Source of the DNA: Flavobacteriales bacterium
GTDB taxonomy: Bacteria > Bacteroidota > Bacteroidia > Flavobacteriales_C > GCA-002722245
DNA length: 64,000 nucleotides
Reading direction: 5' to 3'
Assembly: GCA_002722245.1 (NCBI GenBank)
Contig: PBLA01000003.1
Location: 99,109-163,108 of the forward strand
The stretch's first letter is position 1; the number at the start of each line of letters is the position of its first letter. Below the pieces are notes generated by a model. The model saw only the letters and a list, made by a program, of their open reading frames with translations. It was not told the DNA's origin and made no database searches. Position numbers and translations under genes: made by a program. Shown here in pieces: positions 1 through 31,623 of this stretch.

Positions 1-1145
1 CCTGCATTCTTTGGATCATCCCATAAGTTTTTTTCACTGTTATACTCAGAATACCAAATATCCCATCCTCCAAGAGACTTCTCTTCTCGATTACTCACAA
101 AGTATAAAACCGATATTTCTTCCTCACCATCCCCTAGTGATCCTAGGGTGGGTTGTGTAGAATGAAATCCTTTGAGATTAATTTTATCGTTGAGCTTAAT
201 AGGCTCACTCCAAAAATCTCCTTCTTCTCGACTGGCATAATATAGATGAAAGGTAAGCTCTCCATTAATATTTCGTAATCCTCTTGAAAAATAAAACTGT
301 GAGCTGTCCCTATTAAAACATCCATTTCCATTCTCGGTATCCTTCAGGTTAAACCAACCTTCAGCATACTCACCTTGAGATACCCATGTAGAATCATTGC
401 GTTTTTTAGCCGTATAAAACTTTCTTCTTGGTATAAGTGATAGACTATCGTCTTGATTTACATATATGTTTGTGTCCGATCGCAACGAAGAATATAACAA
501 AATAGAATCGTTTAATGGAACTGGAGACAACTCTACCTGAACTTTATTCACAGAGGTGTCAGGATGAAAGATTTTCACCTTCAATTGCTCTTTGATAATT
601 TCTGGAGCAGCTTCGCATGAGGCAATGTAAAGATCAACCTCTTTTTTATCAATTTTGGTAGAACTCAGCACCTCCTTAAATTGTGTGAAATGTTCTAACG
701 CTTTATCATATTTACCATTAATCAATTCCATCTGAGCAAGATAAAACTGTGCCTCTGGATACTTCTTGGGCTTGGCTTGAAAAACCAAAAAGTAGTTTAA
801 TTCCGCATTCACATAATCACGAGAAAGCCGATAAGCCTCAGCTAACTTGTACTGATACTTAACATAAAGCGAAGCTATTCGGGCTGGCATAATTTCATCT
901 TCACCACTATATAAGGAGTCGCTGTTTCTTAAAAACTTATTGTAATAGGCTGCTGCTCCATATATATCACCTAATTTATAGCTCTTATCACCTGTTTTTC
1001 GCACAGTCCTGTGACGATTGCTATTAAACTTAACACTATCAACTTCAGCAATTGACTCTTCATCATTGGTTTGACCAAATAAGCAAAACCCACTAAAAAA
1101 AGCCGCTAGAAACACTATTTTCTTAATATCTATCACAAGGAACAT
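1..1145 (-). CDS. OmpA-family-like protein, N-terminal part (signal peptide, TPR region, start of a TolB/PD40-like region); C-terminus lies beyond the window start
   Basis: Minus-strand ATG at 1143-1145 gives MFLVIDIKKIVFLAAFFSGFCLFGQ... (signal peptide). TPR-like helices follow (YYNKFL, AEAYRLSRDYVNAELNYF, AQFYLAQMELINGKYDKALEHF). The frame stays open to position 1. Position directly downstream of a PorP/SprF gene matches the usual TPR-TolB-OmpA partner. Confidence 0.5.
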   Translation of the reverse strand, partial: MFLVIDIKKIVFLAAFFSGFCLFGQTNDEESIAEVDSVKFNSNRHRTVRKTGDKSYKLGDIYGAAAYYNKFLRNSDSLYSGEDEIMPARIASLYVKYQYKLAEAYRLSRDYVNAELNYFLVFQAKPKKYPEAQFYLAQMELINGKYDKALEHFTQFKEVLSSTKIDKKEVDLYIASCEAAPEIIKEQLKVKIFHPDTSVNKVQVELSPVPLNDSILLYSSLRSDTNIYVNQDDSLSLIPRRKFYTAKKRNDSTWVSQGEYAEGWFNLKDTENGNGCFNRDSSQFYFSRGLRNINGELTFHLYYASREEGDFWSEPIKLNDKINLKGFHSTQPTLGSLGDGEEEISVLYFVSNREEKSLGGWDIWYSEYNSEKNLWDDPKNA

Positions 1146-2139
1146 TGTAAATCTTTGGTTCGGTGCTTTGTGGAATATAAATGACTGACAATTCAAAAGC
1201 GCCTCTATAATGCGTGAGCGAAGATAAACTAGAGACATTAACGTCATAGCTCAATCCAACCTGCCATTCTTCTCTACGCGCACCCATGATCAGATTAAGC
1301 GCATCATAATTTCTATTAAATCCTGCTCTCATATTTGCTCCTCCAAACACTTCATTCACTTTTGCTTTTTTCTCTTTAATTTTCATAAAGAGTAGCGCAC
1401 CTACTACAACTTCTTGTGCATTGTTTTGATGCATCCATAAAACATTGGGTGAGAAGGAATATTTTTCGTTAATCGTGTAATTCAACTTGGCGTTGTACAC
1501 TTGTCGCAATGAAAAACTTGCAGAATCATTTAAAAAACTTTCCTCTGGGGTATTTAAATGAAAAAAAGCTGCACCCAGTTCAGGAAAAAATTTATCATTA
1601 ACTTTTCTAGCCCATCCCACGCCAATATTCACATCCATTGAATAATCATTAAATTTTGTGAAACTTTCCATATTGGAAAGCCCTCCCTGACCGTTAAATT
1701 CTCCAATCGAGTTATCCCATTGATTAGGATACGAAAATTCATTCGGATCCAAGCCCTTATGCAACATTCCTGCCTGAACACCTATACTGTAATAGTTTTT
1801 CTTCACCTGTTTTTTGCTCCCTAACGAAAACATCAATTTATTTTGCATTAAGTTCCCGATTGACGATCGATCATTATTAAATTGAAGACCTGCACTGAGC
1901 GATTTACCATAGATCGAAAAGTTCTGATCGTAGCTCATTCCAAATGTTTTGTACTGCTTTTCCATGACAGCCCCCCACTGGGAACGATAATTTCCCACCA
2001 CGCGATAATCACCTTCATAAGCCCCTGTTTCCCCAGGGTTCAAGTTTAAAGGAGAAAACATCCATTGACTAAAATGAATATCTTGAGCTTTAGCAACCGA
2101 AGAAATCACTAAAAATACAATGACTAGTCTTTTTACCAT
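1123..2139 (-). CDS. PorP/SprF-family type IX secretion membrane protein
   Basis: Signal peptide then the family-typical N-terminus AQDIHFSQWMFSPLNLNPGETG. Beta-barrel-like composition and ~340 aa length fit. Overlaps the upstream gene by 7 nt (ATGGTAA). Confidence 0.8.
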   Translation of the reverse strand: MVKRLVIVFLVISSVAKAQDIHFSQWMFSPLNLNPGETGAYEGDYRVVGNYRSQWGAVMEKQYKTFGMSYDQNFSIYGKSLSAGLQFNNDRSSIGNLMQNKLMFSLGSKKQVKKNYYSIGVQAGMLHKGLDPNEFSYPNQWDNSIGEFNGQGGLSNMESFTKFNDYSMDVNIGVGWARKVNDKFFPELGAAFFHLNTPEESFLNDSASFSLRQVYNAKLNYTINEKYSFSPNVLWMHQNNAQEVVVGALLFMKIKEKKAKVNEVFGGANMRAGFNRNYDALNLIMGARREEWQVGLSYDVNVSSLSSLTHYRGAFELSVIYIPQSTEPKIYNVPCDRY

Positions 2140-2960
2140 AAATACTTTCTTCCTGTTTTCATGATGTACAACATCCGATTAAACTGTTCTCTTGTAAAGC
2201 GCATTTCACATCCACTTTCAGGATATTTACTCATTAAATTACAGATAGGCACTTCATAGGTTAGACCTGTCTCGGTTTGCTGAGATTGTTGATTCATCAC
2301 AATCTGACAATTTTCTATGTTCCCATTCGATCCACTCGGTTCGTCTGCAGGGGTGTCGCAAATTAAATCTCCAGCGGTAGCACAATTGGATCCATCCACT
2401 AATTCGATACCATTGGCAATTGTTTCATACGTTGGAAATAATCCAAAATACGATCCCAACACATGAGATAATGTACGCGCGCTAAAGCACCCCTTTGCTA
2501 AGAACAAGGCATCCCTTAAGTTTGTGTCCGGCAAAGCAGAAGAGTCTCCTCGAATAGCATAACCACAATAGCCTGGCTCTGGACTTCGATCAACCACAGA
2601 TGTTGCGATATATAAATTAATGACATTCTTTTTTCTGTAAAGCGCAGCTATTTCCTCATCGTGAATTCCGCGTACTAGAATATCCTGACGATGATTAGGA
2701 AGCTCCGTATATTGACAAAGCTTAAAATCTACGCAAATGTCCGAAAAGTCCTCACTTACTTCACTCAACGCATCTTCAACAATCTCTTGTGTAATTGGCA
2801 ATGCTAAATCCATCGTGTCAGTTAATACCCAAGCCACTACGCTAAACGTTTTTTTATAACATTGATTTGAAGAACCAAAATCAGAATTATACTGAGCAAA
2901 ACTCACACTACACCATAAAATGGCGATTGCGAATAAATGAATAGGGTTTTTTCTGGCCAT
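2133..2960 (-). CDS. M43 (pappalysin/ulilysin-like) metallopeptidase homologue with apparently degenerate zinc site (pseudo-peptidase candidate)
   Basis: Signal peptide MARKNPIHLFAIAILWCSVSFAQ. Segment RTLSHVLGSYFGLFPTY aligns to the M43 consensus RTLTHEVGHWLGLYHTF, and the downstream AGDLICDTPADE matches the M43 GDxVxDTPA motif. Confidence 0.55.
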   Translation of the reverse strand: MARKNPIHLFAIAILWCSVSFAQYNSDFGSSNQCYKKTFSVVAWVLTDTMDLALPITQEIVEDALSEVSEDFSDICVDFKLCQYTELPNHRQDILVRGIHDEEIAALYRKKNVINLYIATSVVDRSPEPGYCGYAIRGDSSALPDTNLRDALFLAKGCFSARTLSHVLGSYFGLFPTYETIANGIELVDGSNCATAGDLICDTPADEPSGSNGNIENCQIVMNQQSQQTETGLTYEVPICNLMSKYPESGCEMRFTREQFNRMLYIMKTGRKYLW

Positions 2961-3063
2961 AACTTTAAGGAAGTCAAATATAGAATTTAAATTATAATTT
3001 TTAACTAAATCTTAACGAGTTGCCTAAAAATGTTACATTTGTTCAAGCCAAAAATATTTTATT

Positions 3064-6000
3064 TTGAAAAAAATATTACTTATCCTCTTAACATATACTG
3101 CCGGTTGCTTAATGGTCAATGCACAAATTACGGCAGACAAGGTGTCGGGTTGTGCCCCCCTCACTGGTGTTCAATTTAGTAGTCCTGTCGCGGGTTCATG
3201 GGATTTTGGTGATGGAGGAACAGGGACAGGAACCAACCCCCAAGCCAGTTTTAGTTCACCAGGAATTTATAACGTGGTTTTTACACCTGATGGTGGAGGA
3301 GCGCAAGAAAATTTAGAAATCTCCGTATTTGGCAAACCAAGTGCGGCATTCACATTAAACGAAACAACAGGATGTCCAAATTTTTCGGCTACGTTTACAG
3401 ATGCATCCACACCGTATGAAGGTTCAACCATTACTGACTGGACATGGGATTTTGGTGACGGATCTATTGGAAACGGACAAAATCCAAGCCATACCTACAC
3501 AGCCACAGGAGCTTATTCTGTTACACTTACCATAACCGACGACAACACCTGCGATACCGCTATAGTGGCAGTAGATGTTATTGAACTAAAATCACCCCCT
3601 ACCGCATCTTTTACTGCTTCGCCCACAACCTCGTGTACCGCACCATTAAATGTGGCAATAACCAATAATTCTACCAATGGATCTGGAGGAACGGATAATC
3701 TATCCTACACATGGGATTTTGGAGATGGTGGTTTTTCGTCATCCGCAAACCCAGGGTCCCGCACCTATAACTCAGAAGGAGTTTATGCGCTTAAACTGAC
3801 TGTTAGTGAAGATGGGGGTTGTGATCGAGAACTTTCCCGAAGTATATCCATCGGAAATCCTGAGGCAATAATTGATGTTCCCGACACCATCTGTTTTGGG
3901 GTTCAAACCAAATTTCAACACAGTTCAACTGGTGGAAGTAGTTTTAGATGGAATTTTGATGATGGTGGAACCACCACAAATCCAAGTCCAAATTACAGTT
4001 TCTCTACTCCTGGAAATCATACTGTAGAGTTAATTGCAAGTGCAAGTGGATGTTCCGACACTACTGAAAAATCATTGTTTGTTCAACAAATCACCCCAAC
4101 TATTTCAGCGGAACCAACCTATCAATGTGGCAAACCTTACTGCGTTCAGTTTACAGGAGGCGGAGAAAACATCACCTCATGGAACTACAGTTTCAATCAG
4201 GGAGGCTCTTCAAATGAACAAAACCCATTGCACTGCTATAGCTATTTTAGTGATGACCCTTATGCCGTTAATTACGAAAATGCAAGTTTTCCTAACACCA
4301 CTTCACTCAGAGGGATTTCGGTTCATGGATGTTATGGAGACGTTTCAATTACAGACACTATTCACCCTTTAAAACCAAACTTTGCACCCAACATTACACA
4401 AGGTTGTGTGCCACTTGAAGTTGTTTTTTCAGATTCCACCAATACAGGTTCACCAATTGTGTCTTATCAATATGATTTTGGAGACGGAAGCGTTTCCAGT
4501 GATGAAAATCCTACGCATACATTTACAACTCCAGGAGAGTATATCGTAACGTTGGATGTTGAAAACGCAAACGGGTGTGCCGATACCTCCTTTCCGATAA
4601 CAATATATGTTGGAGATACCGTAAATATTGATTTAACAGTATCCCCAACTGAAGTTTGTATTGGAGACACTGTCACCATTACGGATGCAACCGGAAATCC
4701 GAATATTGATCGTTATCACTTCTCAACCGATGAAAACAGAGGCTCAGAGGCATGTCCGAGCGATTCAATACAGCAATGGTCTTTCTTTCATACAACTGGA
4801 TTACACGATGTTACATTTTTTGCCGATTACAATGGTTGTATTTCTGAAAAGGTTTTCTCCGATGCGATAACTGTAAAAGGACCTTCCTCCGAATTTAATT
4901 GGTCGGGGAATTGTGAAAATCCAACAAATATCACTTTTACAGCGACCACAAGTGAAATAGACAGTTTATACTGGTATTTTGGAGATGATGTGGATAGTGT
5001 ATTGTTTTCCGATAATTTAAACGACACAGTCGCAATTCATAATTATGATACTACGGGCAATTACACAGTAACTCTTATCACTACTAACTCAACATCAGGC
5101 TGTCCTAATGATACCTCATCAAAAATTGTAAATGTGCGGATGTTGGAAGCTATAATTGACGCTCCTACAATTGTTTGTACGGGTCCATTCATTCCCTCTG
5201 GTGCGAATTCAAAAGATGTTTATGGTTTCTGTGATAATGCCTATCGGTGGGATTTTGGTGATGGCTCGCCTATTTACCTTTCAAACAATCCTACCTTCCC
5301 AAATGTTTTCTCTGACACAGGGTCCTACACAGTACGCTTAATGGTTTATGACATCAATGGCTGTAGAGATACAACAGAACATCAATTTAGTGTTACCGAT
5401 CTTTATGCAGGTTTTGATCAAGACACCACAACAGGTTGTATTCCTTTAACCATCAACTTTGAAGATACCTCATGGAGTTCATCAAAAATCATTAATTGGG
5501 AATGGCAATTTGGAAATGATAGTGTTGATTCATCAGGAGCTATTGTTTCCAACACCTATGAAAACTATGACCTAAGCCAATACAATGTGCTTTTAATTGT
5601 GCAAGACTCTTTGGGGTGTATAGATACTGCCACAGGAACGATCAACCCAATTATTCCAGATTCCACATTTAGTGTTAACGATCGAACCATTTGTGAAGGA
5701 GACGAAGTAACGTTCACCTTAAACAATCCCAATTCGATACAATCAGCCGACTGGACTTTTGATAATCAGGGTACAGCAGATAGCTTAACGCCAAGATTCA
5801 TATTTGCTAATGAAGGTAATTACGCGATCACGGTGGAAGTAACTGACACCAATGGTTGTGTGGCACAAAATACCGTTTCTAGCTATGTTTTAGTGGATGC
5901 CTATCCGGATGCGTTTTTAACAATTGATAAAAATATAGGGGAAGAATATTGTGCGCCACAAACCTTTCGATTTACAGATTCTACCGAATTTAATAGCATT

Positions 6001-7458
6001 ACTACTTATGGTTCGCGAACTTGGAATCTAGATAACGGCAACAGCAGCATTGTAAATAAAAACCCTGTTGGAGGAACATACTCAACTCCTGGTATTTATA
6101 ACCCTCAATTAATTGTGCAGTCCAGCAATGGCTGTAGAGACACATCAAGTATTTCTATTACAATCATTGGTCCTGAGGGGGATTTTGATATGGATAAAAG
6201 TATTGTTTGTTTGGGGGATTCTGTGGAATTTACCATAAAAGATACTGTAAACATCAGTTCCTTTACCTGGGATTTCAATGATGGTCGAACAGTTGCATCA
6301 ACCTCTCCAGTAAGTCATGCGTTTACCACATTTCCAAGTGGAGCAGTGCAAACCATCTCATTGGATTTAATAGGTCAAAAAAGCGGATGTCCGATTAGCG
6401 TAGAAAAAACGTTAAACATCCATCAAGTTCATGCTGACTTTTCATTTGCAGATTCTACGGTATGTTTAAATACGGATGTTGAATTCACAAGCTTATCCGC
6501 CTCCACAACAAATACCACTTTTTATTGGGATTTTGGCAATGGTACTAATTTTTCAGCCGAGGACCCTGCACCACAATCCTACTCCAATATGGACCCAGGA
6601 ACGTATGTGGTTACATTAATTGTTGAAGACGCCAACATAGGGTGTAAAGATACCATTAGTAAAAATCTTGAAATATTAGCTTTACCTTCTGTGGAATCAA
6701 ATGACACCGTGGTTTGCGATGGTGAAAGTACCGTAATTTACGCTTCAGGAGCGGATTCTTATTCCTGGGATAATTCAGTGTTGTTGGAATCCCCTGACAG
6801 CGCGGTTACTGTTGTAAATATTACCGAAGACACTTCGTTCACGGTTACGGGAACACAACCTGTAATTACTGTTGATACGAGTTTTTGTTCAAACACCTCT
6901 ACAAGCATGGTATCAATTGTGCGAGAAATTGATGCTGAAGATGTGAAAGTCAATTGTGTCATCATTGGACAATCCCTTTCTTTTGGTCCAGATTCTCTTC
7001 CTGGTGGGTACACTTACGACTGGAGTAAAGGACCAACTGATTATTTAAAATGTTTAGATTGTGCAAGGCAAAACTTAATTATTAATGATGGCGTGGATTC
7101 TCTTGTATATAAAGTAGAGGTTTCTGATCCCTCAAATTGTTTCCCAAAAATCAGCAGTTATCAAATTTGTGTCCGAGAAAACTACACGTTGGATGTTCCA
7201 TCCGCTTTTACTCCTAATGGGACTGAGCCCAATGATGTGGTATTCATTAACGGGCATGGAATTGATCGTTTAGTCTTTTTCCGAATTTACAACAGATGGG
7301 GTGAAATGGTTTTTGAAACACAAGACATTAATGTTGGTTGGGATGGAACATACAAAGGCGATGCGCAAGATATGGAAACCTATATTTACCAAGCACGAGC
7401 AATCATGTTAGACGGCAATACGCTCGAAACAGGTGGAGAAATTGTACTAATCCGTTAA
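3064..7458 (+). CDS. Large cell-surface protein with about a dozen PKD-like repeats and a T9SS type-B (gliding-motility-associated) C-terminal sorting domain
   Basis: Signal peptide MKKILLILLTYTAGCLMVNAQ with a TTG start. Repeated W(D/N)FGDG / WDFNDG PKD signatures throughout. C-terminus SAFTPNGTEPNDVVFING...IYNRWGEMVF...GWDGTYKG...GGEIVLIR matches the type-B CTD. Confidence 0.8.
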   Translation: MKKILLILLTYTAGCLMVNAQITADKVSGCAPLTGVQFSSPVAGSWDFGDGGTGTGTNPQASFSSPGIYNVVFTPDGGGAQENLEISVFGKPSAAFTLNETTGCPNFSATFTDASTPYEGSTITDWTWDFGDGSIGNGQNPSHTYTATGAYSVTLTITDDNTCDTAIVAVDVIELKSPPTASFTASPTTSCTAPLNVAITNNSTNGSGGTDNLSYTWDFGDGGFSSSANPGSRTYNSEGVYALKLTVSEDGGCDRELSRSISIGNPEAIIDVPDTICFGVQTKFQHSSTGGSSFRWNFDDGGTTTNPSPNYSFSTPGNHTVELIASASGCSDTTEKSLFVQQITPTISAEPTYQCGKPYCVQFTGGGENITSWNYSFNQGGSSNEQNPLHCYSYFSDDPYAVNYENASFPNTTSLRGISVHGCYGDVSITDTIHPLKPNFAPNITQGCVPLEVVFSDSTNTGSPIVSYQYDFGDGSVSSDENPTHTFTTPGEYIVTLDVENANGCADTSFPITIYVGDTVNIDLTVSPTEVCIGDTVTITDATGNPNIDRYHFSTDENRGSEACPSDSIQQWSFFHTTGLHDVTFFADYNGCISEKVFSDAITVKGPSSEFNWSGNCENPTNITFTATTSEIDSLYWYFGDDVDSVLFSDNLNDTVAIHNYDTTGNYTVTLITTNSTSGCPNDTSSKIVNVRMLEAIIDAPTIVCTGPFIPSGANSKDVYGFCDNAYRWDFGDGSPIYLSNNPTFPNVFSDTGSYTVRLMVYDINGCRDTTEHQFSVTDLYAGFDQDTTTGCIPLTINFEDTSWSSSKIINWEWQFGNDSVDSSGAIVSNTYENYDLSQYNVLLIVQDSLGCIDTATGTINPIIPDSTFSVNDRTICEGDEVTFTLNNPNSIQSADWTFDNQGTADSLTPRFIFANEGNYAITVEVTDTNGCVAQNTVSSYVLVDAYPDAFLTIDKNIGEEYCAPQTFRFTDSTEFNSITTYGSRTWNLDNGNSSIVNKNPVGGTYSTPGIYNPQLIVQSSNGCRDTSSISITIIGPEGDFDMDKSIVCLGDSVEFTIKDTVNISSFTWDFNDGRTVASTSPVSHAFTTFPSGAVQTISLDLIGQKSGCPISVEKTLNIHQVHADFSFADSTVCLNTDVEFTSLSASTTNTTFYWDFGNGTNFSAEDPAPQSYSNMDPGTYVVTLIVEDANIGCKDTISKNLEILALPSVESNDTVVCDGESTVIYASGADSYSWDNSVLLESPDSAVTVVNITEDTSFTVTGTQPVITVDTSFCSNTSTSMVSIVREIDAEDVKVNCVIIGQSLSFGPDSLPGGYTYDWSKGPTDYLKCLDCARQNLIINDGVDSLVYKVEVSDPSNCFPKISSYQICVRENYTLDVPSAFTPNGTEPNDVVFINGHGIDRLVFFRIYNRWGEMVFETQDINVGWDGTYKGDAQDMETYIYQARAIMLDGNTLETGGEIVLIR

Positions 7459-7501: not shown

Positions 7502-7924
7502 ATGAAACCAATTCAATTTTTTTCATCCCTTTTGTGCACAGTAAGTTTACTTTCGGCATGTGATCCCGCTGAAAACATTACTGAATGTGATATCGATGGC
7601 GTAATTTGCACAGAAGAATTCAGAACTGTAGAAATGTCATTAACGCAATCTTCCGGTGAGCCTGCTACTTTAGATAGCGTTGTGGTTACTAAGGATGGAG
7701 AAACTCTTTTTACGGCTAGTACAGACACCGTTACCACGGGTGTATTTCCTGTTATAACAGATGCTGAAATGAATGATATAATTAAAGAAGGATCACAAGT
7801 TGTGTTCAAGGGGTATGAATCAGGCGCTGTGATAGTAAATGAAAATTACAAGGTAGGTCATGACTGCTGCCATGTGGTTTTTATTCAAGGAACACAAGAC
7901 GTCGTACTTACATCAGAGAATTAA
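7502..7924 (+). CDS. Small hypothetical lipoprotein
   Basis: Signal peptide with lipobox LLSAC|D; 140 aa; no recognisable domain. Its 3' end overlaps the convergent SDR gene by ~17 nt. Confidence 0.4.
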   Translation: MKPIQFFSSLLCTVSLLSACDPAENITECDIDGVICTEEFRTVEMSLTQSSGEPATLDSVVVTKDGETLFTASTDTVTTGVFPVITDAEMNDIIKEGSQVVFKGYESGAVIVNENYKVGHDCCHVVFIQGTQDVVLTSEN

Positions 7925-13195: not shown

Positions 13196-15325
13196 ATGAA
13201 TCGTTTAAAAGAGCTCCTCCATTGTTATCGATTTCCCATTATTTTATCAATTGTGATAACACTTGTTATCTGGCCAATTTCTTTCCACCTCTTTTCTCCT
13301 AAATGGGACAATATTGATTGCTTTTTGCCCTATCGGTATTTTTTGTCCTCATACATTAATCAAGGAGAGTGGCCATGGTGGAACCCTTTTCAGAGTTTGG
13401 GTTATCCTGGGTATGCTGATTTACAAAGCGGGGCCTGGAACCCCATTACCTGGACCATGATTGGTCTTTTTGGTGACTATACAATACACGCTCTTTCCAC
13501 AGAGCTTACGCTTTATTTTTTGTTAGGTGGTTTAGGGATGTATAAATTTTCTATCTGCATATCCAAGGATAGTTATATAAGAATGTTTTGTGGATTTTCA
13601 TTCGCATTGTGTGGGTTTATGGTGGGCACAACTCAAATCATGGTTTTTTTAATTGGTATTGTATGGCTTCCTTGGATTTTGCATGCAATTAGGGCATTAG
13701 CACATGAAACAAAACTTAAACATGCCTGTTATTTAGGCTTGTATATCGCATTAGAAACAACTTCTGCAAGCCCGGCTTTTACGATTATCTTAATTTATAT
13801 TCTGTTAGGAGCAGTGGTGTTTTACACGCTAAAAAGTGGTAAACAAAAGCTTAAAGTATTTAGGTTATATTGTTTCGCTGGGTTAATCGCTATACTACTG
13901 TGTTTACCATTGGTTAGTTCGTTTAATGACTTTTCTCCATATTTTGGCAGGGTAGGTAAGTTAGAATATTTGCCGTGGGTTTACGCAGGGTCTTTTGATT
14001 TTGCAGAATATATTTCTTTAATATTCCCCATGACAATTCTAAGTAAGGGTGATGTGTGGGGGTCAACTGATTTAACCTTAAGAAACGGTTATTTTGGCCT
14101 TTTTGGTTTAATTATAAGTGTATATGCTCTTGTAAAATGTTGGAAATTAAAAAACACAAAAATATTAGCTATTTTAGGATTAGTTGCATTACTCTTAGCG
14201 GCAGGTGATTATACACCTATTTTCAAAATGGCATACAATCTTCCAGGGTTTGGGAGGTTTCGCCACCCTAGCTTTTTTAGGTCATATTTTATTTTTTTCA
14301 TGATTTTATTATCAGGTATTGGACTAAATGAAATTAAACACAAACAGCATGCTTTTTCTTCATGGATAATTGTCGTTCTAATTGTTACTTTCGGGATACT
14401 ACTATCAGTGTATAGTAACAGCATAGGTTTCGTTACTGATCTGCTAAGTGACTTGTTAACGTTTAAGGAAAAACCTGATTATTTTGCTGAACCCTTTTTA
14501 TTTATTAACTCTACAATAGTCATTCTCCTATTGTTAACCTACCTTTTGTTGTCCAAAAAAGTAAAAAACAAACTTCAATTAATTCTATACTTAGGAGTGT
14601 TTGATTTGGTTTTACAAACGCAAATAACTGCTGCCACAACAATGGTTTTTCCTCAAAAAACCACAGAGCAATTTAGCGAATTTTATGATCTATTGCCTTC
14701 TGAAATTGATCAGGATCCAACCGAGAAACCATTAAAAGATTTTAACGGTTATCGCAAAGGCTGCGATCCATATCCAATTTGGAGAAATGTTGGAACCTTT
14801 ACCAAACAAATTTCTTTAAACGGACATAATCCAACAATGATGAGCAGCTTTAATGTTTTAGAAAAAAATGGTGGGTTGAATAATATAGGTTTAAACCCTG
14901 TTTTCTTTGCTTCAAAACATATTGTGGATAGTGCTCAACTAGCCACCCAGCCAAATACAGTTTGGGGGACCTCAATTTCAAATGACGAAATAAGGCTAGA
15001 TCAAAAAAAGATTGAGCACAATGGGTTTTTCATGGAAGTTACAAACCCTTCAAAAGATACTGGTTTAATCGTGATTAATCAGAACTTTCACCATTTATGG
15101 CAAGCAACGTTGAATAAGAACTCTACTGAAATAAAACGTGTAAACGATGGTTTAATGGGGATTGAAATCCCTCCACAAACAAATGCTCGTGTCCAAATGA
15201 TTTATGATGCTCCAACAACTCGACTATGTTTTTGGTTTTCAGTTGTTTCCTATCTAATTTTATTTCTTTACCTCATTCAAAATATCCTTTACCCTCATAA
15301 ACCACAATTAAAAAAGTCAGCCTAA
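13196..15325 (+). CDS. Large polytopic membrane protein, YfhO-family-like
   Basis: 709 aa with many TM helices in the N-terminal two-thirds and a C-terminal soluble region. N-terminal motifs (WDNIDCFLPYRYF, WPWWNPFQSLGYPGYADLQSGAWNP) resemble YfhO/glycosyltransferase-39-like membrane proteins. Assigned from memory only. Confidence 0.45.
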   Translation: MNRLKELLHCYRFPIILSIVITLVIWPISFHLFSPKWDNIDCFLPYRYFLSSYINQGEWPWWNPFQSLGYPGYADLQSGAWNPITWTMIGLFGDYTIHALSTELTLYFLLGGLGMYKFSICISKDSYIRMFCGFSFALCGFMVGTTQIMVFLIGIVWLPWILHAIRALAHETKLKHACYLGLYIALETTSASPAFTIILIYILLGAVVFYTLKSGKQKLKVFRLYCFAGLIAILLCLPLVSSFNDFSPYFGRVGKLEYLPWVYAGSFDFAEYISLIFPMTILSKGDVWGSTDLTLRNGYFGLFGLIISVYALVKCWKLKNTKILAILGLVALLLAAGDYTPIFKMAYNLPGFGRFRHPSFFRSYFIFFMILLSGIGLNEIKHKQHAFSSWIIVVLIVTFGILLSVYSNSIGFVTDLLSDLLTFKEKPDYFAEPFLFINSTIVILLLLTYLLLSKKVKNKLQLILYLGVFDLVLQTQITAATTMVFPQKTTEQFSEFYDLLPSEIDQDPTEKPLKDFNGYRKGCDPYPIWRNVGTFTKQISLNGHNPTMMSSFNVLEKNGGLNNIGLNPVFFASKHIVDSAQLATQPNTVWGTSISNDEIRLDQKKIEHNGFFMEVTNPSKDTGLIVINQNFHHLWQATLNKNSTEIKRVNDGLMGIEIPPQTNARVQMIYDAPTTRLCFWFSVVSYLILFLYLIQNILYPHKPQLKKSA

Positions 15326-24248: not shown

Positions 24249-25295
24249 TTAAGACGCCAAATAATAAGGATTCAGCGTAACGTTTGTTTTTAACTCTTCT
24301 GTTATTTTTTGTCCATTTTTAAGATTAGCTCTAAACATTAAAAACCATTGAATCTCAACGTTATCTTGCTCAAATGAACCAGGTGCATCAGTTAAGTTAA
24401 TTTGTGTTTTAAATGTATTTTTCTGCTGAACATCCCTTATTCTTCGGTATTTGGTTCGCCCTATTACTTTGTCATATACAACCCTATCGCTCCCTCTTCC
24501 ATCTGTCACCCACTCCCTTACTTCATAGTAGCAATCTAAAGAAGATATCTTACTCCAGTTTTTTTTGAGTTTTATTTTTACTTCTTGCTGATTATTTTCA
24601 ATTGATTGAGAAGAAATGTCAATTGTACCAAACGTTTTTATATCCCATTTCATGTAGGAACTGTACCCAAAGATTCCAAAAGAGAAAAAGCCAAAAACAT
24701 AAACAAAAATAGAACCCAGTAATAACCCAAAGTTCCACATTAAATAACCTATTCCAAACATCACAAGCGGGATTAATAATAACCACCAACTTAAAGATGC
24801 TTTTATTGTCTTTTTAATCGAGCTAGGAACATAGGTATACGTTTTTGGAAAAACCTTGAACCTTAATTTTCTGTCAAATTCTTGCTCGGGACTAAAGACT
24901 TTACTAACTGAAAGATTCTTTAAATACTGTTTTCTAATAAAGCTTTTAGATTTTGAAGTCAAGTCTGCATCTGTTTCTACATACCAAACAAACTGTACAT
25001 ATTTACCTTGGTAGCTTATCATATCCGAAGGGCAGAAATCAAATTCATACTCTAAAATATCACCTGCCATCCATGAATCTTTATCACTCAGCTTTTCCAG
25101 ATGAACAATCATAGGAGAGTAGTTTACAACTCCCCTAACCTCTACACATACCTTTGCATTCAGATAATTAATATCAAAATCATGTAAAATTTCTAAATAC
25201 AGTTTACACTTAACATTTGAACCATACTTATACTTATTATCAGCAGATGATAATGTTGCTTTTAAATTGATGAATTTCCCCTCTTTTTTTCCCAT
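24249..25295 (-). CDS. Hypothetical membrane protein: N-terminal soluble domain, central TM hairpin, C-terminal soluble domain
   Basis: 348 aa. Two adjacent hydrophobic helices (WWLLLIPLVMFGIGYLMWNFGLLLGSIFVYVFGFFSFGIFGY) flanked by charged soluble regions; no family recognised. Its start ATG overlaps the stop of the upstream P-loop gene. Confidence 0.5.
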   Translation of the reverse strand: MGKKEGKFINLKATLSSADNKYKYGSNVKCKLYLEILHDFDINYLNAKVCVEVRGVVNYSPMIVHLEKLSDKDSWMAGDILEYEFDFCPSDMISYQGKYVQFVWYVETDADLTSKSKSFIRKQYLKNLSVSKVFSPEQEFDRKLRFKVFPKTYTYVPSSIKKTIKASLSWWLLLIPLVMFGIGYLMWNFGLLLGSIFVYVFGFFSFGIFGYSSYMKWDIKTFGTIDISSQSIENNQQEVKIKLKKNWSKISSLDCYYEVREWVTDGRGSDRVVYDKVIGRTKYRRIRDVQQKNTFKTQINLTDAPGSFEQDNVEIQWFLMFRANLKNGQKITEELKTNVTLNPYYLAS

Positions 25296-28311: not shown

Positions 28312-31300
28312 TTGAAAACAAACGATTTAAATAATATTCATTCAAATTTAAATGCCTTTATAAGAAGATATTATCTTCGTGATATATATAAAGGATTCAT
28401 AATCACTTTTAGTGGTGGGATTTCTTTACTTACTTTGTTTGCTGTTGCAGAATACTTTTTTCGATTCAGTTCAAACGCCCGTTTATTTTTACTGGTTTCA
28501 TTTACACTTATTTTCCTAATTTCATTTTTTCGATTTTTAGCGCTCCCTTTTCTTCGTTTTTTAGGCATCATTCATAAAATTTCTGAAGAACAGGCATCTA
28601 AACTAATTGGAAAGTATTTCACAGACGTAAATGATCAATTAACCAACCTTTTACAACTAGAGAAAAGCGAGTCAAATGAATTAACTCTTGCTAGTATTGA
28701 TCAAAAAGCAAAAAAAATAGCACCGTTTGAATTTAAAAAAGCGGTTTCCTTTCGAGATGTTTTTAAAATGGTCAAATGGTCTTTCATACCTCTTGCCGTT
28801 GTGATGATAATAAGCCTTTGGAATGCAAAAATAATTACTAAAGGAACAGAAAGAATCGTAAACTTTAATCAAACATTTGTTCCAGAAAACCCATACAAAT
28901 TTAAGATTGTAAACACTCATTTTTCCGTTTTACGTAACGATCAATATACCTTCCAAATTGAATTTACTGGAGAGAAAGTTCCACATGATGTTTACATTAT
29001 TGAAAATAATAAACAGTATAGATTTTCAAAGAAAAGCATGTCGGTTTTTGAATTTGTGTTTAGAAATGTTCAAAAGCCACTTCGTTTTCAAGTTAACACA
29101 GGAGGTTATTTAAGTAACTATTTTCAATTAAACCTTATTGAAAAACCTGCTATTTCTAATTTTAGTGTAGCGTTAAATTTTCCTGCTTACACAAAAAAGA
29201 AAAGAAAAGTACTTCACAATAATGGAGATCTTTTTATTCCAGAGGGAACAGAAATTAAATGGCTATTAAAATCTCATTTTGTTGACCAGGTCATATTTAC
29301 AATAAATGATTCTCTATCATCTCTATCACCTGTGGAAAATCGCATTATTTTTAAAACACAAGCTTTATCCTCTTTTAATTACAGCATAACACCAAAAAAT
29401 ACAGATGGAATACTAGGTGATAAAATGGATTATTCTGTGAACGTTATTAAAGATAATTATCCTCAAATAAAAGTGAAGAATATTCAAGACTCCATACATC
29501 CTTTCTTTCTTTTTCACTCTGGACTTATCGCTGATGATTATGGTTTTAAATCTTTACGTTTCTGTTTTCAAAATAATGACACAAGTGGTTTTATACCTAT
29601 TCCAGTTCCAACAACTGAATTTCAATACAGTTTTAATCATGGGATAAATATCAAAGAACTCGGATTTGAAGCTGGTAGCAATTTTTCTTATTATTTTGAA
29701 GTATTTGATAACGATGCTGTAAATGGTTCAAAATCAACTAAAAGTACATTACAATCATATGATATCCCGTCAAAAAAAGATATCGAAGAATTATTGGCAA
29801 ATAACCGTAAATCAATCAAAAATCAATTGGATCAAAATATGAACGAAGTACAAAATCTTCAAAAAGAATATGAAGATCTTCAAAAAATGATGTCCTCCAA
29901 GAAAAAGATGGACTGGCAAGACAAAGCGAGGCTTGAGCAATTTATGAACCATCAAAATCAATTAAAAAATCAATTAGAACAGCTGCAATTCGATCAAGAA
30001 AAAAATAACTATCAAAAAGATCAGCTCTCCCCACTGGAAGAGACTATTCTCAAAAAGCAGGAACAAATTAATAAGCTCTTTGAAGAATTAATGGACGAAG
30101 AAACAAAAAAGCTCTTCGAAGAATTAGAAAAATTATTAGAAAATTTTCAAGAAGAAAAAATTAAAGAAACTCTCGAAGAAATGAATCTAAGTAACGAGGC
30201 ATTAGAAAAAGAACTGGACAGAACGCTAGAAATGTTTAAACAATTGGAGTTCGATCAAAAACTTGAAGAAACGATTGAAAAACTTGATCAATTAGCTAAA
30301 AAGCAAGAAGAGGCCTCCGAAGAAACCCGTGAGAATAAAGAATTAACAAAAGAAGAACTTCAGGAAAAACAAAAAAACATCAATAAGGAATTTGAGGAAA
30401 TACAACATAATATTGAAGAACTGCAACAGCAAAATGAAGAGTTGGAATATAAACGCAATTTTGAACGTTCGCAAGATCAACAAGAAGAGATAAAACAAGA
30501 CCAACAAAAAAGTGAAGAAGAAATTCAAAACAACAACACAAAAAAGGCTTCCAAAAGTCAAAAAAACGCTGCAGAAAAAATGAAAAAATTATCTGAACAG
30601 ATGAAAAAAATGCAACAAGACCAAAAAATGGAACAGCAAATGGAGGACATGAATAGTTTACGACAAATACTTGAAAATCTTATCTCGCTCTCTGTTGAAC
30701 AAGAAGATTTAATGAAAAAAATAAAAACTACGAACAGATTTGATCCTCGTTTTCCAGTATTAGCAACCACACAAGGTAATTTAAAAGAAAGTGCTAAAAT
30801 TATAGAGGATTCACTGCTTGCTCTTTCTAAAAGACAAATTAGCCTCCAAACCATCGTGAACAAAGAAATACTAGATATTAAATACAATATGGATAAATCG
30901 ATTGACTTTTTAAGGGAAAGAAAAAATTATAATGCCGCTATGAAGCAACAATACGTTATGACAGCAGCCAATAATCTTGCCCTCTTATTAGATGAATCCC
31001 TCCAACAAATGCAAGAACAAATGCGAAAGCAACAAGGTGGTGGAAACTGCACTAAACCAGGAGGAGCTCAACCTAAACCAGGATCCATACAAAACATCAA
31101 ACAAATGCAAAAACAACTTTCTGAACAAATGCAAAAAATGATGAAAGAATTGCAAAATGGTAAAAAACCAGGTAAGCAAGGAAAAAATGGCAAAAATGGA
31201 TTAGCCAAATCACTTGCGCAAATGGCTGCACAGCAAAATGCCATAAAAGAACAACTAAAGAAGCTTCAGGAGGAAAATAAGAAACAAGGTGGAGGCCTTG

Positions 31301-31623
31301 GTGATTTAAAAAGTTTACTGGATCAGCTCGATCAAAACGAACGTGACATACTCAATAAAAATATTTCCAGAGAAACCATTTTACGTCAGCAAGAGATAAT
31401 GAGTAAACTCTTAAAAGCTGAAAATGCGCAAAGAGAAAGAGAATTAGATAAAAAAAGAATCTCGAAAAAAGGGATAAATACATTTAAACGTAACCCTGAA
31501 GATTTTTCATCGTATGAGACCTTCGAGTTAAAAGAAAAGGAAGCTATTAAAACTATTCCGTCATCTTTTAATTTGTATTATAAGAAGAAAATAAGCGAAT
31601 ATTTTAATAAATTTGACGAATAA
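28312..31623 (+). CDS. Large membrane-anchored protein with ~600-aa Q/E/K-rich coiled-coil region (DUF4175-like)
   Basis: Two N-terminal TM helices, a ~450-aa beta-rich region, then an extended low-complexity coiled coil (EELEKLLENFQEEKIKETLEEMN..., QQ/KK runs). TTG start. Confidence 0.5.
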   Translation: MKTNDLNNIHSNLNAFIRRYYLRDIYKGFIITFSGGISLLTLFAVAEYFFRFSSNARLFLLVSFTLIFLISFFRFLALPFLRFLGIIHKISEEQASKLIGKYFTDVNDQLTNLLQLEKSESNELTLASIDQKAKKIAPFEFKKAVSFRDVFKMVKWSFIPLAVVMIISLWNAKIITKGTERIVNFNQTFVPENPYKFKIVNTHFSVLRNDQYTFQIEFTGEKVPHDVYIIENNKQYRFSKKSMSVFEFVFRNVQKPLRFQVNTGGYLSNYFQLNLIEKPAISNFSVALNFPAYTKKKRKVLHNNGDLFIPEGTEIKWLLKSHFVDQVIFTINDSLSSLSPVENRIIFKTQALSSFNYSITPKNTDGILGDKMDYSVNVIKDNYPQIKVKNIQDSIHPFFLFHSGLIADDYGFKSLRFCFQNNDTSGFIPIPVPTTEFQYSFNHGINIKELGFEAGSNFSYYFEVFDNDAVNGSKSTKSTLQSYDIPSKKDIEELLANNRKSIKNQLDQNMNEVQNLQKEYEDLQKMMSSKKKMDWQDKARLEQFMNHQNQLKNQLEQLQFDQEKNNYQKDQLSPLEETILKKQEQINKLFEELMDEETKKLFEELEKLLENFQEEKIKETLEEMNLSNEALEKELDRTLEMFKQLEFDQKLEETIEKLDQLAKKQEEASEETRENKELTKEELQEKQKNINKEFEEIQHNIEELQQQNEELEYKRNFERSQDQQEEIKQDQQKSEEEIQNNNTKKASKSQKNAAEKMKKLSEQMKKMQQDQKMEQQMEDMNSLRQILENLISLSVEQEDLMKKIKTTNRFDPRFPVLATTQGNLKESAKIIEDSLLALSKRQISLQTIVNKEILDIKYNMDKSIDFLRERKNYNAAMKQQYVMTAANNLALLLDESLQQMQEQMRKQQGGGNCTKPGGAQPKPGSIQNIKQMQKQLSEQMQKMMKELQNGKKPGKQGKNGKNGLAKSLAQMAAQQNAIKEQLKKLQEENKKQGGGLGDLKSLLDQLDQNERDILNKNISRETILRQQEIMSKLLKAENAQRERELDKKRISKKGINTFKRNPEDFSSYETFELKEKEAIKTIPSSFNLYYKKKISEYFNKFDE

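What the first reader, a model, noticed from the sequence alone, without database searches (positions are those of the whole stretch)
2133..2960. M43 metallopeptidase homologue in the PorP/SprF operon has apparently lost its zinc-binding residues
Seen in sequence: RTLSHVLGSYFGLFPTY aligns residue-for-residue with the M43 (ulilysin/pappalysin) zinc motif RTLTHEVGHWLGLYHTF as I recall it. Only the first His is kept; the catalytic Glu becomes Val and the second and third His ligands become Ser and Pro. The family-specific downstream motif is conserved (AGDLICDTPADE versus GDxVxDTPA), which argues for true homology rather than chance. The gene is signal-peptide-bearing and translationally coupled (7-nt overlap) to the PorP/SprF gene. 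Inference: a catalytically dead pseudo-peptidase retained as a T9SS-associated binding or scaffold protein.
Basis: partly seen in the sequence, partly recalled or inferred. Interest (0 to 1): 0.55.

Follow-up and report, generated by a model that had tools for sequence, protein, structure and literature searches.

The report
Inactive M43 protease beside T9SS cargo
A small secreted protein with the fold of a zinc protease (family M43) has lost its catalytic glutamate and two of its three zinc-binding histidines yet is still kept by selection, and it belongs to a four-gene type IX secretion cargo/anchor cluster, conserved across Bacteroidota, in which this protein family has lost its active site many separate times.

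Summary
ORF 2133..2960 (-) encodes a 275-aa M43/pappalysin-fold protein. HExxHxxGxxH has become HVxxSxxGxxP, while the Met-turn, the GDxxCDTPAD motif and the cysteine framework are kept. No other HExxH exists.

It is not a decaying pseudogene. Six related sequences form one dead clade (97-100% bootstrap) with dN/dS of 0.07-0.20. Evolutionary rate relative to the adjacent PorP gene matches that of the active sisters.

Two new points:
- The gene is part of a conserved module: a ~1,460-aa PKD-rich type-B-CTD cargo (divergent), the M43-like gene, a PorP/SprF-like gene and a PorE-like (TPR...OmpA_C) gene. The module reaches Cytophaga hutchinsonii. Linkage to the cargo (48/52 loci) is tighter than to PorP (24/52).
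- Active-site loss recurs family-wide. It needs about 18 independent events, and 37% of 150 cluster representatives lack the Glu or a ligand. Met-turn Met is invariant.

Most likely it is a non-catalytic periplasmic partner (binder or chaperone) of the cargo/PorP/PorE assembly. That role is inferred, not shown. I found no paper describing an M43-like fourth gene in these modules.

It is a new variant of a known kind, of moderate interest.

The parts
2133..2960 (-). M43-like (pappalysin-fold) pseudo-peptidase gene, 275 aa
   Evidence: ORF. Homologues carry PF05572. Family profile hits ulilysin, pappalysin and mirolysin. AF2 model pLDDT 82.9 with Foldseek best hits PAPP-A and mirolysin.
2895..2960 (-). 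Signal peptide (residues 1-22), predicted signal peptidase I site SFA|Q; Gln at +1
   Evidence: Read from the sequence. Model helix 6-22. Q23 column is Gln in 134/193 family members. No dedicated signal-peptide predictor was run.
2433..2465 (-). Degenerate zinc-binding motif HVLGSYFGLFP (residues 166-176), in place of HExxHxxGxxH
   Evidence: Active sisters have HELGHYFGLYH.
2343..2372 (-). Conserved family motif GDLICDTPAD (residues 197-206)
   Evidence: Nearly invariant in the family. Aligns to ulilysin SDEVDDTP..AD.
2232..2234 (-). Met-turn methionine (M243)
   Evidence: Met in 193/193 family members and in 151/151 sequences (150 representatives plus the window protein). Aligns to the ulilysin Met-turn.
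2133..2139 (-). 7-nt overlap ATGGTAA between the M43-like stop codon and the PorP/SprF start codon
   Evidence: The same overlap occurs in L001-L003, L020, L081, L083 and L086-L089.
1123..2139 (-). PorP/SprF-like T9SS outer-membrane protein gene, 338 aa
   Evidence: PF11751 E 3.7e-30; TIGR03519 E 1e-41.
1..1145 (-). 5' part of a PorE-like gene (TPR N-terminus), overlapping the PorP gene by 23 nt and running off the window's left end
   Evidence: Translation. TPR_2 hit. The full-length orthologue in L081 (715 aa) has TPR plus OmpA_C, and its best informative PDB match is 6top.
3064..7458 (+). Divergently transcribed cargo gene: 1464 aa, signal peptide, about 12 PKD domains, type-B T9SS C-terminal domain
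   Evidence: PKD_4 E 5e-119, CHU_C E 1.5e-11, TIGR04131 E 7e-11. Aligns end to end at 32% identity with the 1466-aa C. hutchinsonii orthologue.
2961..3063 (.). 103-bp divergent intergenic region, presumed to carry the promoters of both transcription units
   Evidence: Position only. Three TAnnTTTG matches lie here (2975-2982 -, 3034-3041 +, 3049-3056 -), but the motif is not enriched in the window as a whole.

Best explanation
The gene encodes an exported, disulfide-rich protein with a metzincin (M43/pappalysin) fold. It can no longer bind the catalytic zinc or activate water: Glu->Val, and two of three His ligands ->Ser and Pro. It is kept because it has a non-catalytic job inside a conserved T9SS cargo module.

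The module consists of a ~1,460-aa PKD-repeat surface protein with a type-B C-terminal sorting domain, this M43-like protein, a cognate PorP/SprF-like outer-membrane shuttle/anchor, and a PorE-like peptidoglycan-binding protein.

Proposed mechanism (inferred). After Sec export and signal peptidase I cleavage, the protein stays in the periplasm, since it has no T9SS CTD. There it uses the remnant substrate-binding cleft or another conserved surface to bind the cargo, and possibly its PorP/PorE-like anchor. It would act as a dedicated holder, chaperone or adaptor during delivery or anchoring. In relatives with an intact site a proteolytic step (maturation or quality control) is added, but it is dispensable, which would explain why the site has been lost many times.

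Shown here: homology, fold, loss of catalytic residues, purifying selection, conserved synteny and recurrent loss. Inferred: localisation, binding partner and role.
For: Homology and fold.

Loss of E167, H170 and H176, with no alternative HExxH and no compensating ligand set.

Retention:
- An identical protein occurs on 9 contigs.
- The six-member dead clade is monophyletic in 97-100% of bootstraps.
- dN/dS is 0.10, 0.13, 0.20 and 0.07 for the least saturated pairs.
- dN(M43-like)/dN(PorP) is 1.65 in dead-dead pairs against 1.49 in active-active pairs.
- 93 of 123 positions conserved in the active sisters are kept. The 19 changed positions cluster on the zinc helix, the PCGYAP rim strand and the Tyr after the Met-turn.
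- All conserved Cys are kept.

Module:
- The cargo is adjacent in 48/52 fully flanked loci, PorP in 24/52 and PorE-like in 18/52.
- Pfam-labelled four-gene clusters are seen in dead-clade contigs, in an active sister and in C. hutchinsonii.
- Gene order is rearranged but the linkage is kept in Saprospiraceae and Aureispira.
- The cargo is orthologous across orders.

Recurrent loss:
- 36 of 193 non-redundant members lack the Glu or a ligand, requiring about 18 events on a tree built without the motif columns.
- 55 of 150 50%-identity representatives are dead, while the Met-turn Met is invariant.
- Independent dead lineages keep the module (L090; L075).

The type-B CTD cargo + PorP-like + PorE-like complex is established in the literature (PMC9143113, PMC12618676).
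Against: - Nothing here shows binding to any partner, and periplasmic localisation is only deduced from a signal peptide without a CTD.
- 61% of family representatives keep an intact site, so proteolysis matters in many lineages, and the non-catalytic role could be secondary rather than ancestral.
- PorP and PorE-like genes are adjacent in only about half and a third of loci, so the link to the anchor is looser than the link to the cargo.
- No fusion proteins joining the M43-like domain to cargo, PorP or PorE were found.
- The papers read on the characterised P. gingivalis and F. johnsoniae modules do not mention such a protein, so it may be irrelevant to the core mechanism.
- dS is saturated for most pairs, the dN/dS values are pairwise NG86 estimates, and the tree is neighbour-joining.
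Confidence: 0.6

Rival explanations
1. It is still a hydrolase. It uses a non-canonical metal site or catalytic residues recruited elsewhere, so it is not a pseudoenzyme.
For: H166, the Met-turn, the Gly of the zinc motif and the cleft-forming scaffold are kept. Some metzincins tolerate Asp as the third ligand, and HExxH..D variants exist in this family.
Against: The general base Glu is Val, and two of three ligands are Ser and Pro, which cannot coordinate zinc in the usual geometry. The mature protein has only three His. No new His/Cys/Asp/Glu set is shared by the dead clade near the site; only D71, D224 and E230 are new, in loops elsewhere. Sister P0006/7 has lost H166 as well. The substrate-binding rim strand and the post-Met-turn Tyr have also drifted.
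Confidence: 0.05
2. It is a gene on its way to being lost: an inactivated protease that has not yet accumulated stop codons.
For: Catalytic residues are gone, and the cleft-lining positions have diverged.
Against: The reading frame is intact in six diverged members (59-89% identity). dN/dS is 0.07-0.20, and the rate relative to PorP is the same as in the active sisters. 93/123 conserved positions and all structural Cys are kept. The translational overlap with PorP is conserved. At least two other dead lineages also keep full-length genes in the module.
Confidence: 0.03
3. It acts as a regulator or decoy of proteolysis rather than a cargo partner. A dead protease could compete for substrates of, or bind an inhibitor or activator of, an active M43 enzyme encoded elsewhere in the genome. 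It could also protect the cargo from cleavage.
For: Natural E->Q/L/V variants that keep all three ligands are frequent (31/150 representatives) and resemble substrate-trap mutants. Close relatives are real secreted M43 T9SS cargo proteases with type-A CTDs.
Against: No second M43 gene lies in the 64-kb window; the rest of the genome could not be examined. The near-universal adjacency to one particular cargo orthologue points to that cargo as the partner.
Confidence: 0.15
4. The synteny is historical only. The protein has a periplasmic or envelope function unrelated to T9SS and merely shares an operon.
For: No direct functional data exist. PorP and PorE-like genes are absent from the neighbourhood in about half of the loci.
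Against: Adjacency to the cargo survives across Flavobacteriales, Cytophagales and Chitinophagales/Saprospiraceae, and through a rearrangement of gene order and orientation. This is hard to explain without a functional link. The start/stop overlap with PorP is also kept.
Confidence: 0.1

Closest known systems
Peptidase family M43 (pappalysins): ulilysin, mirolysin (Tannerella forsythia), PAPP-A
   Same: Same fold and sequence family. The family profile hits only these among PDB sequences, and the Foldseek best hits are PAPP-A, PAPP-A2 and mirolysin. Shared features are the zinc-helix scaffold (G..FGL..T), GDxxxDTP, the Met-turn N.M, and FTxGQ in the C-terminal helix.
   Different: The catalytic Glu and two zinc ligands are replaced. 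There is no pro-segment or extra domains, and no T9SS CTD, whereas mirolysin is itself a T9SS cargo (own knowledge) and the longer relatives P0245 and P0250 carry a type-A CTD. It is encoded inside a type-B cargo module.
Type-B CTD cargo / PorP-like / PorE-like modules (P. gingivalis PG1035-PorP-PorE; F. johnsoniae Fjoh_3952-3951-3950 and similar operons)
   Same: The window has a TIGR04131/CHU_C cargo, a PorP/SprF-family gene and a TPR...OmpA_C PorE-like gene in one cluster. This is the arrangement described in PMC9143113 and PMC12618676.
   Different: Those descriptions list three components. Here a fourth, M43-like gene sits between the cargo and PorP and is the component most tightly linked to this cargo orthologue. 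I found no paper mentioning it.
Catalytically dead metzincins used as binding proteins, e.g. ADAM22/ADAM23/ADAM11 (own knowledge; ADAM22-LGI1 structures appear among the fold hits)
   Same: A metzincin catalytic-domain fold retained without a functional zinc site and used for protein-protein interaction.
   Different: Those are eukaryotic, multidomain membrane receptors, with no evolutionary or functional connection to T9SS.
Bacterial envelope pseudo-metallopeptidases and dual protease/chaperones: degenerate LytM factors EnvC/NlpD (M23) and BepA (M48) (own knowledge)
   Same: Periplasmic metallopeptidase folds whose main role is binding, activating or chaperoning an envelope partner. In BepA the chaperone-like role does not need proteolysis. 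This is a working analogy for how the M43-like protein could act on its cargo.
   Different: Different peptidase clans and partners. The analogy concerns mechanism only and was not tested here.

Membership tests
Peptidase family M43 (Pfam PF05572, pappalysin/ulilysin) | Zinc-binding consensus HExxHxxGxxH (three His ligands plus the general-base Glu) | tested here: not met
   HVLGSYFGLFP at residues 166-176, so only the first His and the Gly remain. No other HExxH in the protein.
Peptidase family M43 (Pfam PF05572, pappalysin/ulilysin) | Conserved Met-turn below the metal site | tested here: met
   M243 in CNLMS aligns to ulilysin MNYMDY. Met is invariant in 193/193 family members and 151/151 sequences.
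Peptidase family M43 (Pfam PF05572, pappalysin/ulilysin) | Score above Pfam's gathering threshold for PF05572 | tested here: not met
   16.8 bits against a cut-off of 23, E 0.0066. 26 of 35 aligned relatives hit the model at E<=1e-3, best 6.9e-12.
Peptidase family M43 (Pfam PF05572, pappalysin/ulilysin) | Homology to bona fide M43 enzymes by profile and by fold | tested here: met
   Profile A1 against PDB sequences: ulilysin 2.2e-8, pappalysin-2 2.7e-7, mirolysin 3e-6, and no other family. Foldseek: PAPP-A 1.8e-8, mirolysin 4.7e-6. 57-62% identity to intact-motif members.
Peptidase family M43 (Pfam PF05572, pappalysin/ulilysin) | Zinc-dependent endopeptidase activity | not testable with these tools
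   Needs biochemistry. The sequence predicts no activity.
T9SS type-B CTD cargo / PorP-like / PorE-like anchoring module | Cargo with a type-B C-terminal domain (TIGR04131 / PF13585) | tested here: met
   ORF 3064..7458: CHU_C E 1.5e-11 and TIGR04131 E 7e-11, both above their cut-offs.
T9SS type-B CTD cargo / PorP-like / PorE-like anchoring module | Adjacent PorP/SprF-family gene | tested here: met
   ORF 1123..2139: PF11751 105.8 bits; TIGR03519 143.3 bits.
T9SS type-B CTD cargo / PorP-like / PorE-like anchoring module | PorE-like gene (TPR ... OmpA_C-like peptidoglycan-binding domain) | tested here: met
   The window holds only the TPR-containing N-terminal 381 codons. The full-length orthologues (710-715 aa) in L081, L083, L085, L089 and L090 have the OmpA domain. 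The best informative PDB match is 6top, listed as 'OmpA family protein'; its identification as the PorE C-terminal domain is from memory.
T9SS type-B CTD cargo / PorP-like / PorE-like anchoring module | Physical complex of cargo, PorP-like and PorE-like proteins (and whether the M43-like protein joins it) | not testable with these tools
   Needs pull-downs or complex modelling. Only synteny is available.
T9SS cargo protein (the M43-like protein itself) | C-terminal type-A or type-B sorting domain | tested here: not met
   There is no CTD hit in Pfam or NCBIfam. The protein ends in the metzincin C-terminal helix (H257-268) followed by ...YLW. Longer relatives with Por_Secre_tail exist, but they are a different architecture.
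Pseudogene | Disrupted frame or neutral evolution | tested here: not met
   The ORF is intact in six diverged clade members. dN/dS is 0.07-0.20, and the rate relative to PorP is unchanged.

The most novel reading that the evidence does not exclude
The short, CTD-less M43-like proteins are an undescribed, widely conserved fourth component of one particular T9SS type-B cargo module (PKD-rich ~1,460-aa cargo, PorP-like, PorE-like) across Flavobacteriales, Cytophagales and Chitinophagales. Their core function would be non-catalytic recognition or chaperoning of the cargo in the periplasm. Proteolysis would be an optional extra that has been discarded about 18 or more times. That would make them a natural series of 'substrate-trap' and fully dead metzincins acting as a dedicated secretion or anchoring accessory factor.
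Probability: 0.4. Interest if true: 0.65.

Novelty: new variant of a known kind. Interest (0 to 1): 0.5.

Why it matters
How type-B CTD cargoes are recognised, delivered to their cognate PorP/SprF-like shuttle and fixed to the cell wall through PorE-like proteins is an open question in T9SS biology. Published models have three parts.

A fourth gene that is almost always next to one widespread cargo orthologue, and that repeatedly gives up catalysis while staying under selection, is a concrete candidate accessory factor. It is directly testable in Cytophaga hutchinsonii, which carries the module with an intact motif.

The family also offers a natural experiment for pseudoenzyme evolution. It contains dozens of independent transitions from active metzincin to Glu-less 'trap' to ligand-less scaffold within one conserved genomic context.

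If the protein turns out to be irrelevant to secretion, the result is still a well-documented bacterial pseudo-metzincin, which is of modest interest.

Tried and rejected
- Single-sequence searches were uninformative. phmmer against PDB sequences gave only chance hits. NCBIfam gave nothing significant. Pfam M43 was sub-threshold. Homology had to be established through relatives and a profile.
- PorP identities (L083 to active L001 83%, to the window 67%) suggested that P0006/7 and the window group lost the site independently. I rejected this: a bootstrapped tree of the M43-like gene, with the 20 changed columns removed, keeps all six together in 97% of replicates. The identity pattern fits a faster-evolving window lineage.
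- I looked for Rosetta-stone fusions among long relatives. P0245 and P0250 are ordinary M43 proteases with PPC/CARDB or PKD domains and a type-A CTD, not fusions to PorP, PorE or the cargo.
- I looked for a second, intact M43 paralogue in the window and found none.
- I looked for compensating metal ligands in the dead clade and found none near the site.
- Kulkarni et al. 2019 (J Bacteriol), which maps the F. johnsoniae operons, is not held in the library. So I could not check whether any F. johnsoniae operon has an M43-like gene.
- The Bacteroidetes -7 box TAnnTTTG occurs three times in the 103-bp intergenic region but is not enriched window-wide (74 matches against 97.5 expected). It remains only a lead.
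- I considered a lipoprotein and rejected it. The Cys in the signal peptide (C17) is not conserved, and the conserved feature is A|Q.
Full report
**1. The observation.**

The window has an ATG-initiated ORF of 275 codons at 2133..2960 on the minus strand. Its product contains RTLSHVLGSYFGLFPTY, with the motif at nt 2433-2465.

Alone it only grazes Pfam's Peptidase_M43 model (16.8 bits against a gathering score of 23, E 0.0066). It finds nothing in NCBIfam or among PDB sequences.

A search of the large protein collection gave 279 relatives:
- An identical protein from a marine Flavobacteriales MAG, seen on 9 contigs.
- A handful of relatives at 59-72% identity with no Pfam call.
- Many relatives at 52-62% identity and below that carry PF05572.

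In the alignment (A1) the window's LSHVLGSYFGLFPTY sits column for column on LAHELGHYFGLYHTF of the 60%-identical proteins.

A profile of that alignment matches only M43 enzymes among all PDB sequences: ulilysin 2.2e-8, pappalysin-2, pappalysin-1 and mirolysin. The printed alignment places:
- the family's aHElGHyFGLlHTf on ulilysin THEIGHWLNLYHIW;
- GDliCDTp on SDEVDDTP;
- cNiMsy on the Met-turn MNYMDY.

An AlphaFold2 model (pLDDT 82.9, pTM 0.79) puts residues 161-171 in a high-confidence helix. Its best structural matches are PAPP-A, PAPP-A2 and mirolysin, followed by ADAMs.

The 7-nt overlap ATGGTAA with the downstream PorP/SprF gene is real.

**2. Dead but maintained.**

The window protein and five relatives form one clade in 97-100% of bootstrap replicates, even after the 20 changed columns are removed. 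Their motif states are:
- P0002 and P0004: HLxxA..P
- P0003: HMxxS..P
- P0006 and P0007: VLxxT..P

This indicates one loss followed by further decay, with H166 lost in P0006/7.

I fetched the DNA of these genes and of four intact-motif sisters. Pairwise NG86 dN/dS within the dead clade is:

| Pair | dN/dS |
|---|---|
| L081-L086 | 0.10 |
| L081-L087 | 0.13 |
| L086-L087 | 0.20 |
| L083-L088 | 0.07 |

dS is saturated in most other pairs. As an internal control I divided dN of the M43-like gene by dN of the adjacent PorP gene for the same genome pairs. The mean is 1.65 for dead-dead pairs and 1.49 for active-active pairs. There is thus no sign of general relaxation.

Of 123 positions at least 90% conserved among 21 close active sisters, 93 are kept in at least 5 of 6 dead members. 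The 19 positions that changed in at least 4 of 6 cluster on:
- the zinc helix (163, 167, 170, 175, 176, 178);
- the PCGYAP rim strand (131, 135, 136);
- the surroundings of the Met-turn, including the following Tyr (237, 239, 242, 245).

The structural Cys framework is intact. C132 and C158 are lost together in P0002-4, which suggests a disulfide pair. This is the signature of a pseudoenzyme, not of a pseudogene.

**3. The genomic setting is a conserved four-gene module.**

The gene divergent from the M43-like gene (3064..7458, +) encodes a 1,464-aa protein with about 12 PKD domains and a type-B T9SS C-terminal domain (CHU_C / TIGR04131).

Downstream of PorP, overlapping it by 23 nt and running off the window's left end, is the TPR-containing start of a gene. 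Its full-length orthologues (710-715 aa) end in an OmpA_C-like domain. Their best informative PDB match is 6top, which I recall to be the PorE C-terminal domain, so the architecture is PorE-like.

The same four genes, Pfam-labelled, occur in the contigs of:
- the dead-clade members (L081-L084, L086);
- an intact sister (L089);
- an independent dead lineage with YAxxR..Y (L090);
- Cytophaga hutchinsonii (L085), whose 1,466-aa cargo aligns end to end with the window's at 32% identity.

Among 80 loci recovered from species-representative genomes, 52 have at least 5 kb upstream and at least 4 kb downstream of the M43-like gene:

| Adjacent gene | Loci (of 52) |
|---|---|
| Cargo | 48 (three of the remaining four show a split cargo ORF) |
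| PorP/SprF | 24 |
| PorE-like | 18 |

In several Saprospiraceae and Aureispira genomes the order is PorP, M43-like, cargo, all on one strand. So the linkage survived a rearrangement. The M43-like gene is thus tied first of all to this cargo orthologue.

**4. Active-site loss is a property of the whole subfamily.**

In 193 non-redundant members, motif states were:

| State | Count |
|---|---|
| Intact HExxH...H/D | 151 |
| Asn at the third ligand | 6 |
| Glu lost only (HQ, HL, HH, HV, HI) | 14 |
| One or more ligands lost (many states, including YAxxR..Y, RLxxK..P, NSxxT..P) | 22 |

On a neighbour-joining tree built without the motif columns the root is intact. Parsimony needs about 18 changes to a dead state, about 10 of them involving ligands.

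An exhaustive HMM search of 1.84 billion 50%-identity representatives found 1,420 proteins at E<=1e-30. Among the best 150:

| State | Count |
|---|---|
| Intact | 91 |
| Glu lost only | 31 |
| Ligand(s) lost | 24 |
| Asn at the third ligand | 4 |

The Met-turn Met is invariant (151/151, counting the window protein), and the C-terminal residue is Trp in 121/150.

Two caveats apply. The query profile itself contained about nine dead members, which could slightly favour dead sequences. The event count rests on a distance tree.

Slightly more distant relatives are ordinary secreted M43 proteases with PPC/CARDB or PKD domains and a type-A T9SS CTD. So the short, CTD-less, module-associated proteins are a distinct subfamily next to genuine T9SS cargo proteases.

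**5. How it most likely works.**

Established from the literature: type-B CTD cargoes need a cognate PorP/SprF-like protein, remain associated with it at the surface, and in 'static' cases are thought to be tied to peptidoglycan through a PorE-like protein. Examples are PG1035-PorP-PorE and Fjoh_3952/3951/3950, plus several similar F. johnsoniae operons (PMC9143113, PMC12618676).

Shown here: the M43-like gene is a conserved extra member of one such module. In the window it is catalytically disabled, and it is still under selection.

Inferred:
- The protein is exported by Sec. It has a signal peptide and a conserved A|Q site, which fits the Bacteroidetes preference for Gln at +1 (own knowledge).
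- It lacks a CTD and therefore probably stays in the periplasm.
- It acts by binding the cargo, and possibly the PorP/PorE-like pair, as a holder, chaperone or adaptor.

In intact relatives a proteolytic step such as maturation or quality control is probably added. Its repeated loss argues that it is dispensable. The frequent natural E->Q/L/V variants that keep all ligands look like substrate traps and fit a binding role.

The nearest functional analogies are dead ADAMs used as receptors, and envelope factors such as EnvC/NlpD or BepA (own knowledge). These are analogies of mechanism only.

**6. Rivals.**

- A non-canonical enzyme is unlikely, given no ligands, no base, and drift of the cleft.
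- A decaying pseudogene is contradicted.
- A decoy or regulator of another M43 protease cannot be excluded, because only 64 kb of the genome is visible.
- Pure operon hitch-hiking is hard to reconcile with linkage that persists across three orders and a rearrangement.

**7. Novelty and literature.**

Full-text searches for M43, metalloprotease or pseudoprotease together with PorP/SprF, type-B CTD or T9SS found no description of this gene family in these modules. The key F. johnsoniae operon paper is not in the library, so an earlier mention cannot be ruled out.

Non-peptidase homologues of metallopeptidases are a well-known phenomenon, and the module is known. New here are the fourth component, its tight link to one cargo orthologue, and the scale of recurrent inactivation. 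I rate it a new variant of a known kind, with interest of about 0.5.

**8. Limits.**

There are no binding, localisation, metal or activity data. dS saturation limits the dN/dS estimates. Trees are distance-based. Most related loci are MAG contigs. Model coordinates could not be inspected, so the state of the cleft is judged from sequence and secondary structure only.

Noticed in passing
window 7502..7924 (+): A 140-aa ORF with a lipoprotein-like N-terminus (..LLSAC) and no Pfam hit lies directly downstream of the cargo gene. A 141-aa gene with no Pfam hit occupies the same position in L081/L082, but not in C. hutchinsonii (L085) or L090. It may be a clade-specific extra member of the module.
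   Followed up: partly
L091:2589-7000 (contig carrying P0045, a dead RLxxK..P variant): The cargo gene there is only 531 aa (PKD + CHU_C). About 2.8 kb with only tiny ORFs separates it from the M43-like gene. This is either a disrupted cargo gene or an assembly problem.
   Followed up: no
window 2133..2960 (-), residues C132 and C158: These two Cys are present together (window, P0006, P0007, most active sisters) or replaced together (F/Q in P0002-4). They are probably a disulfide pair next to the former active-site cleft that became dispensable after inactivation.
   Followed up: partly
window 2133..2141 (-), C-terminal ...YLW: The C-terminal residue is Trp in 181/193 family members and 121/150 representatives. 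This includes loci where the stop codon does not overlap a PorP start, so it is conserved at the protein level. It could be a docking motif, for example for the TPR domain of the PorE-like protein, but this was not tested.
   Followed up: partly
third zinc-ligand position (residue 176 of the window protein), seen in P0045/P0128, P0115, P0146, P0165, P0210, P0217, P0249 and P0262: Pro at the position of the third His recurs in several separate dead lineages. This may be a preferred way of stabilising the turn once the metal is gone.
   Followed up: no
window 2961..3063: Three matches to the Bacteroidetes -7 promoter box TAnnTTTG lie in the 103-bp divergent intergenic region (2975-2982 -, 3034-3041 +, 3049-3056 -). 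About 0.1 would be expected from the window-wide density, but the motif is not enriched in the window overall (74 found, 97.5 expected from shuffles).
   Followed up: partly
L005, L006, L009, L028 (Bacteroidota MAGs), about 30-40 nt downstream of the M43-like gene: In these loci the gene after the M43-like gene is a ~910-aa ORF that matched neither the PorP query nor the cargo C-terminal-domain query. It was not characterised.
   Followed up: no
window 13196..15325 (+), 28312..31623 (+), 24249..25295 (-), 34449..35453 (+), 60395..61792 (-): Sizeable ORFs (709, 1103, 348, 334 and 465 aa) with no Pfam family at the thresholds used. The rest of the window is ordinary chromosomal housekeeping: tRNA synthetases, MnmG, UvrC, NadA, DprA, a TonB-dependent receptor, MORN-repeat and DUF3857/transglutaminase proteins, and polysaccharide synthesis genes.
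   Followed up: no
P0245 (856 aa), P0250 (772 aa): These relatives just outside the short subfamily are multidomain M43 proteases with intact motifs and type-A T9SS CTDs (Por_Secre_tail). The CTD-less module-associated proteins and classical secreted M43 cargo proteases are therefore close neighbours in sequence space.
   Followed up: partly
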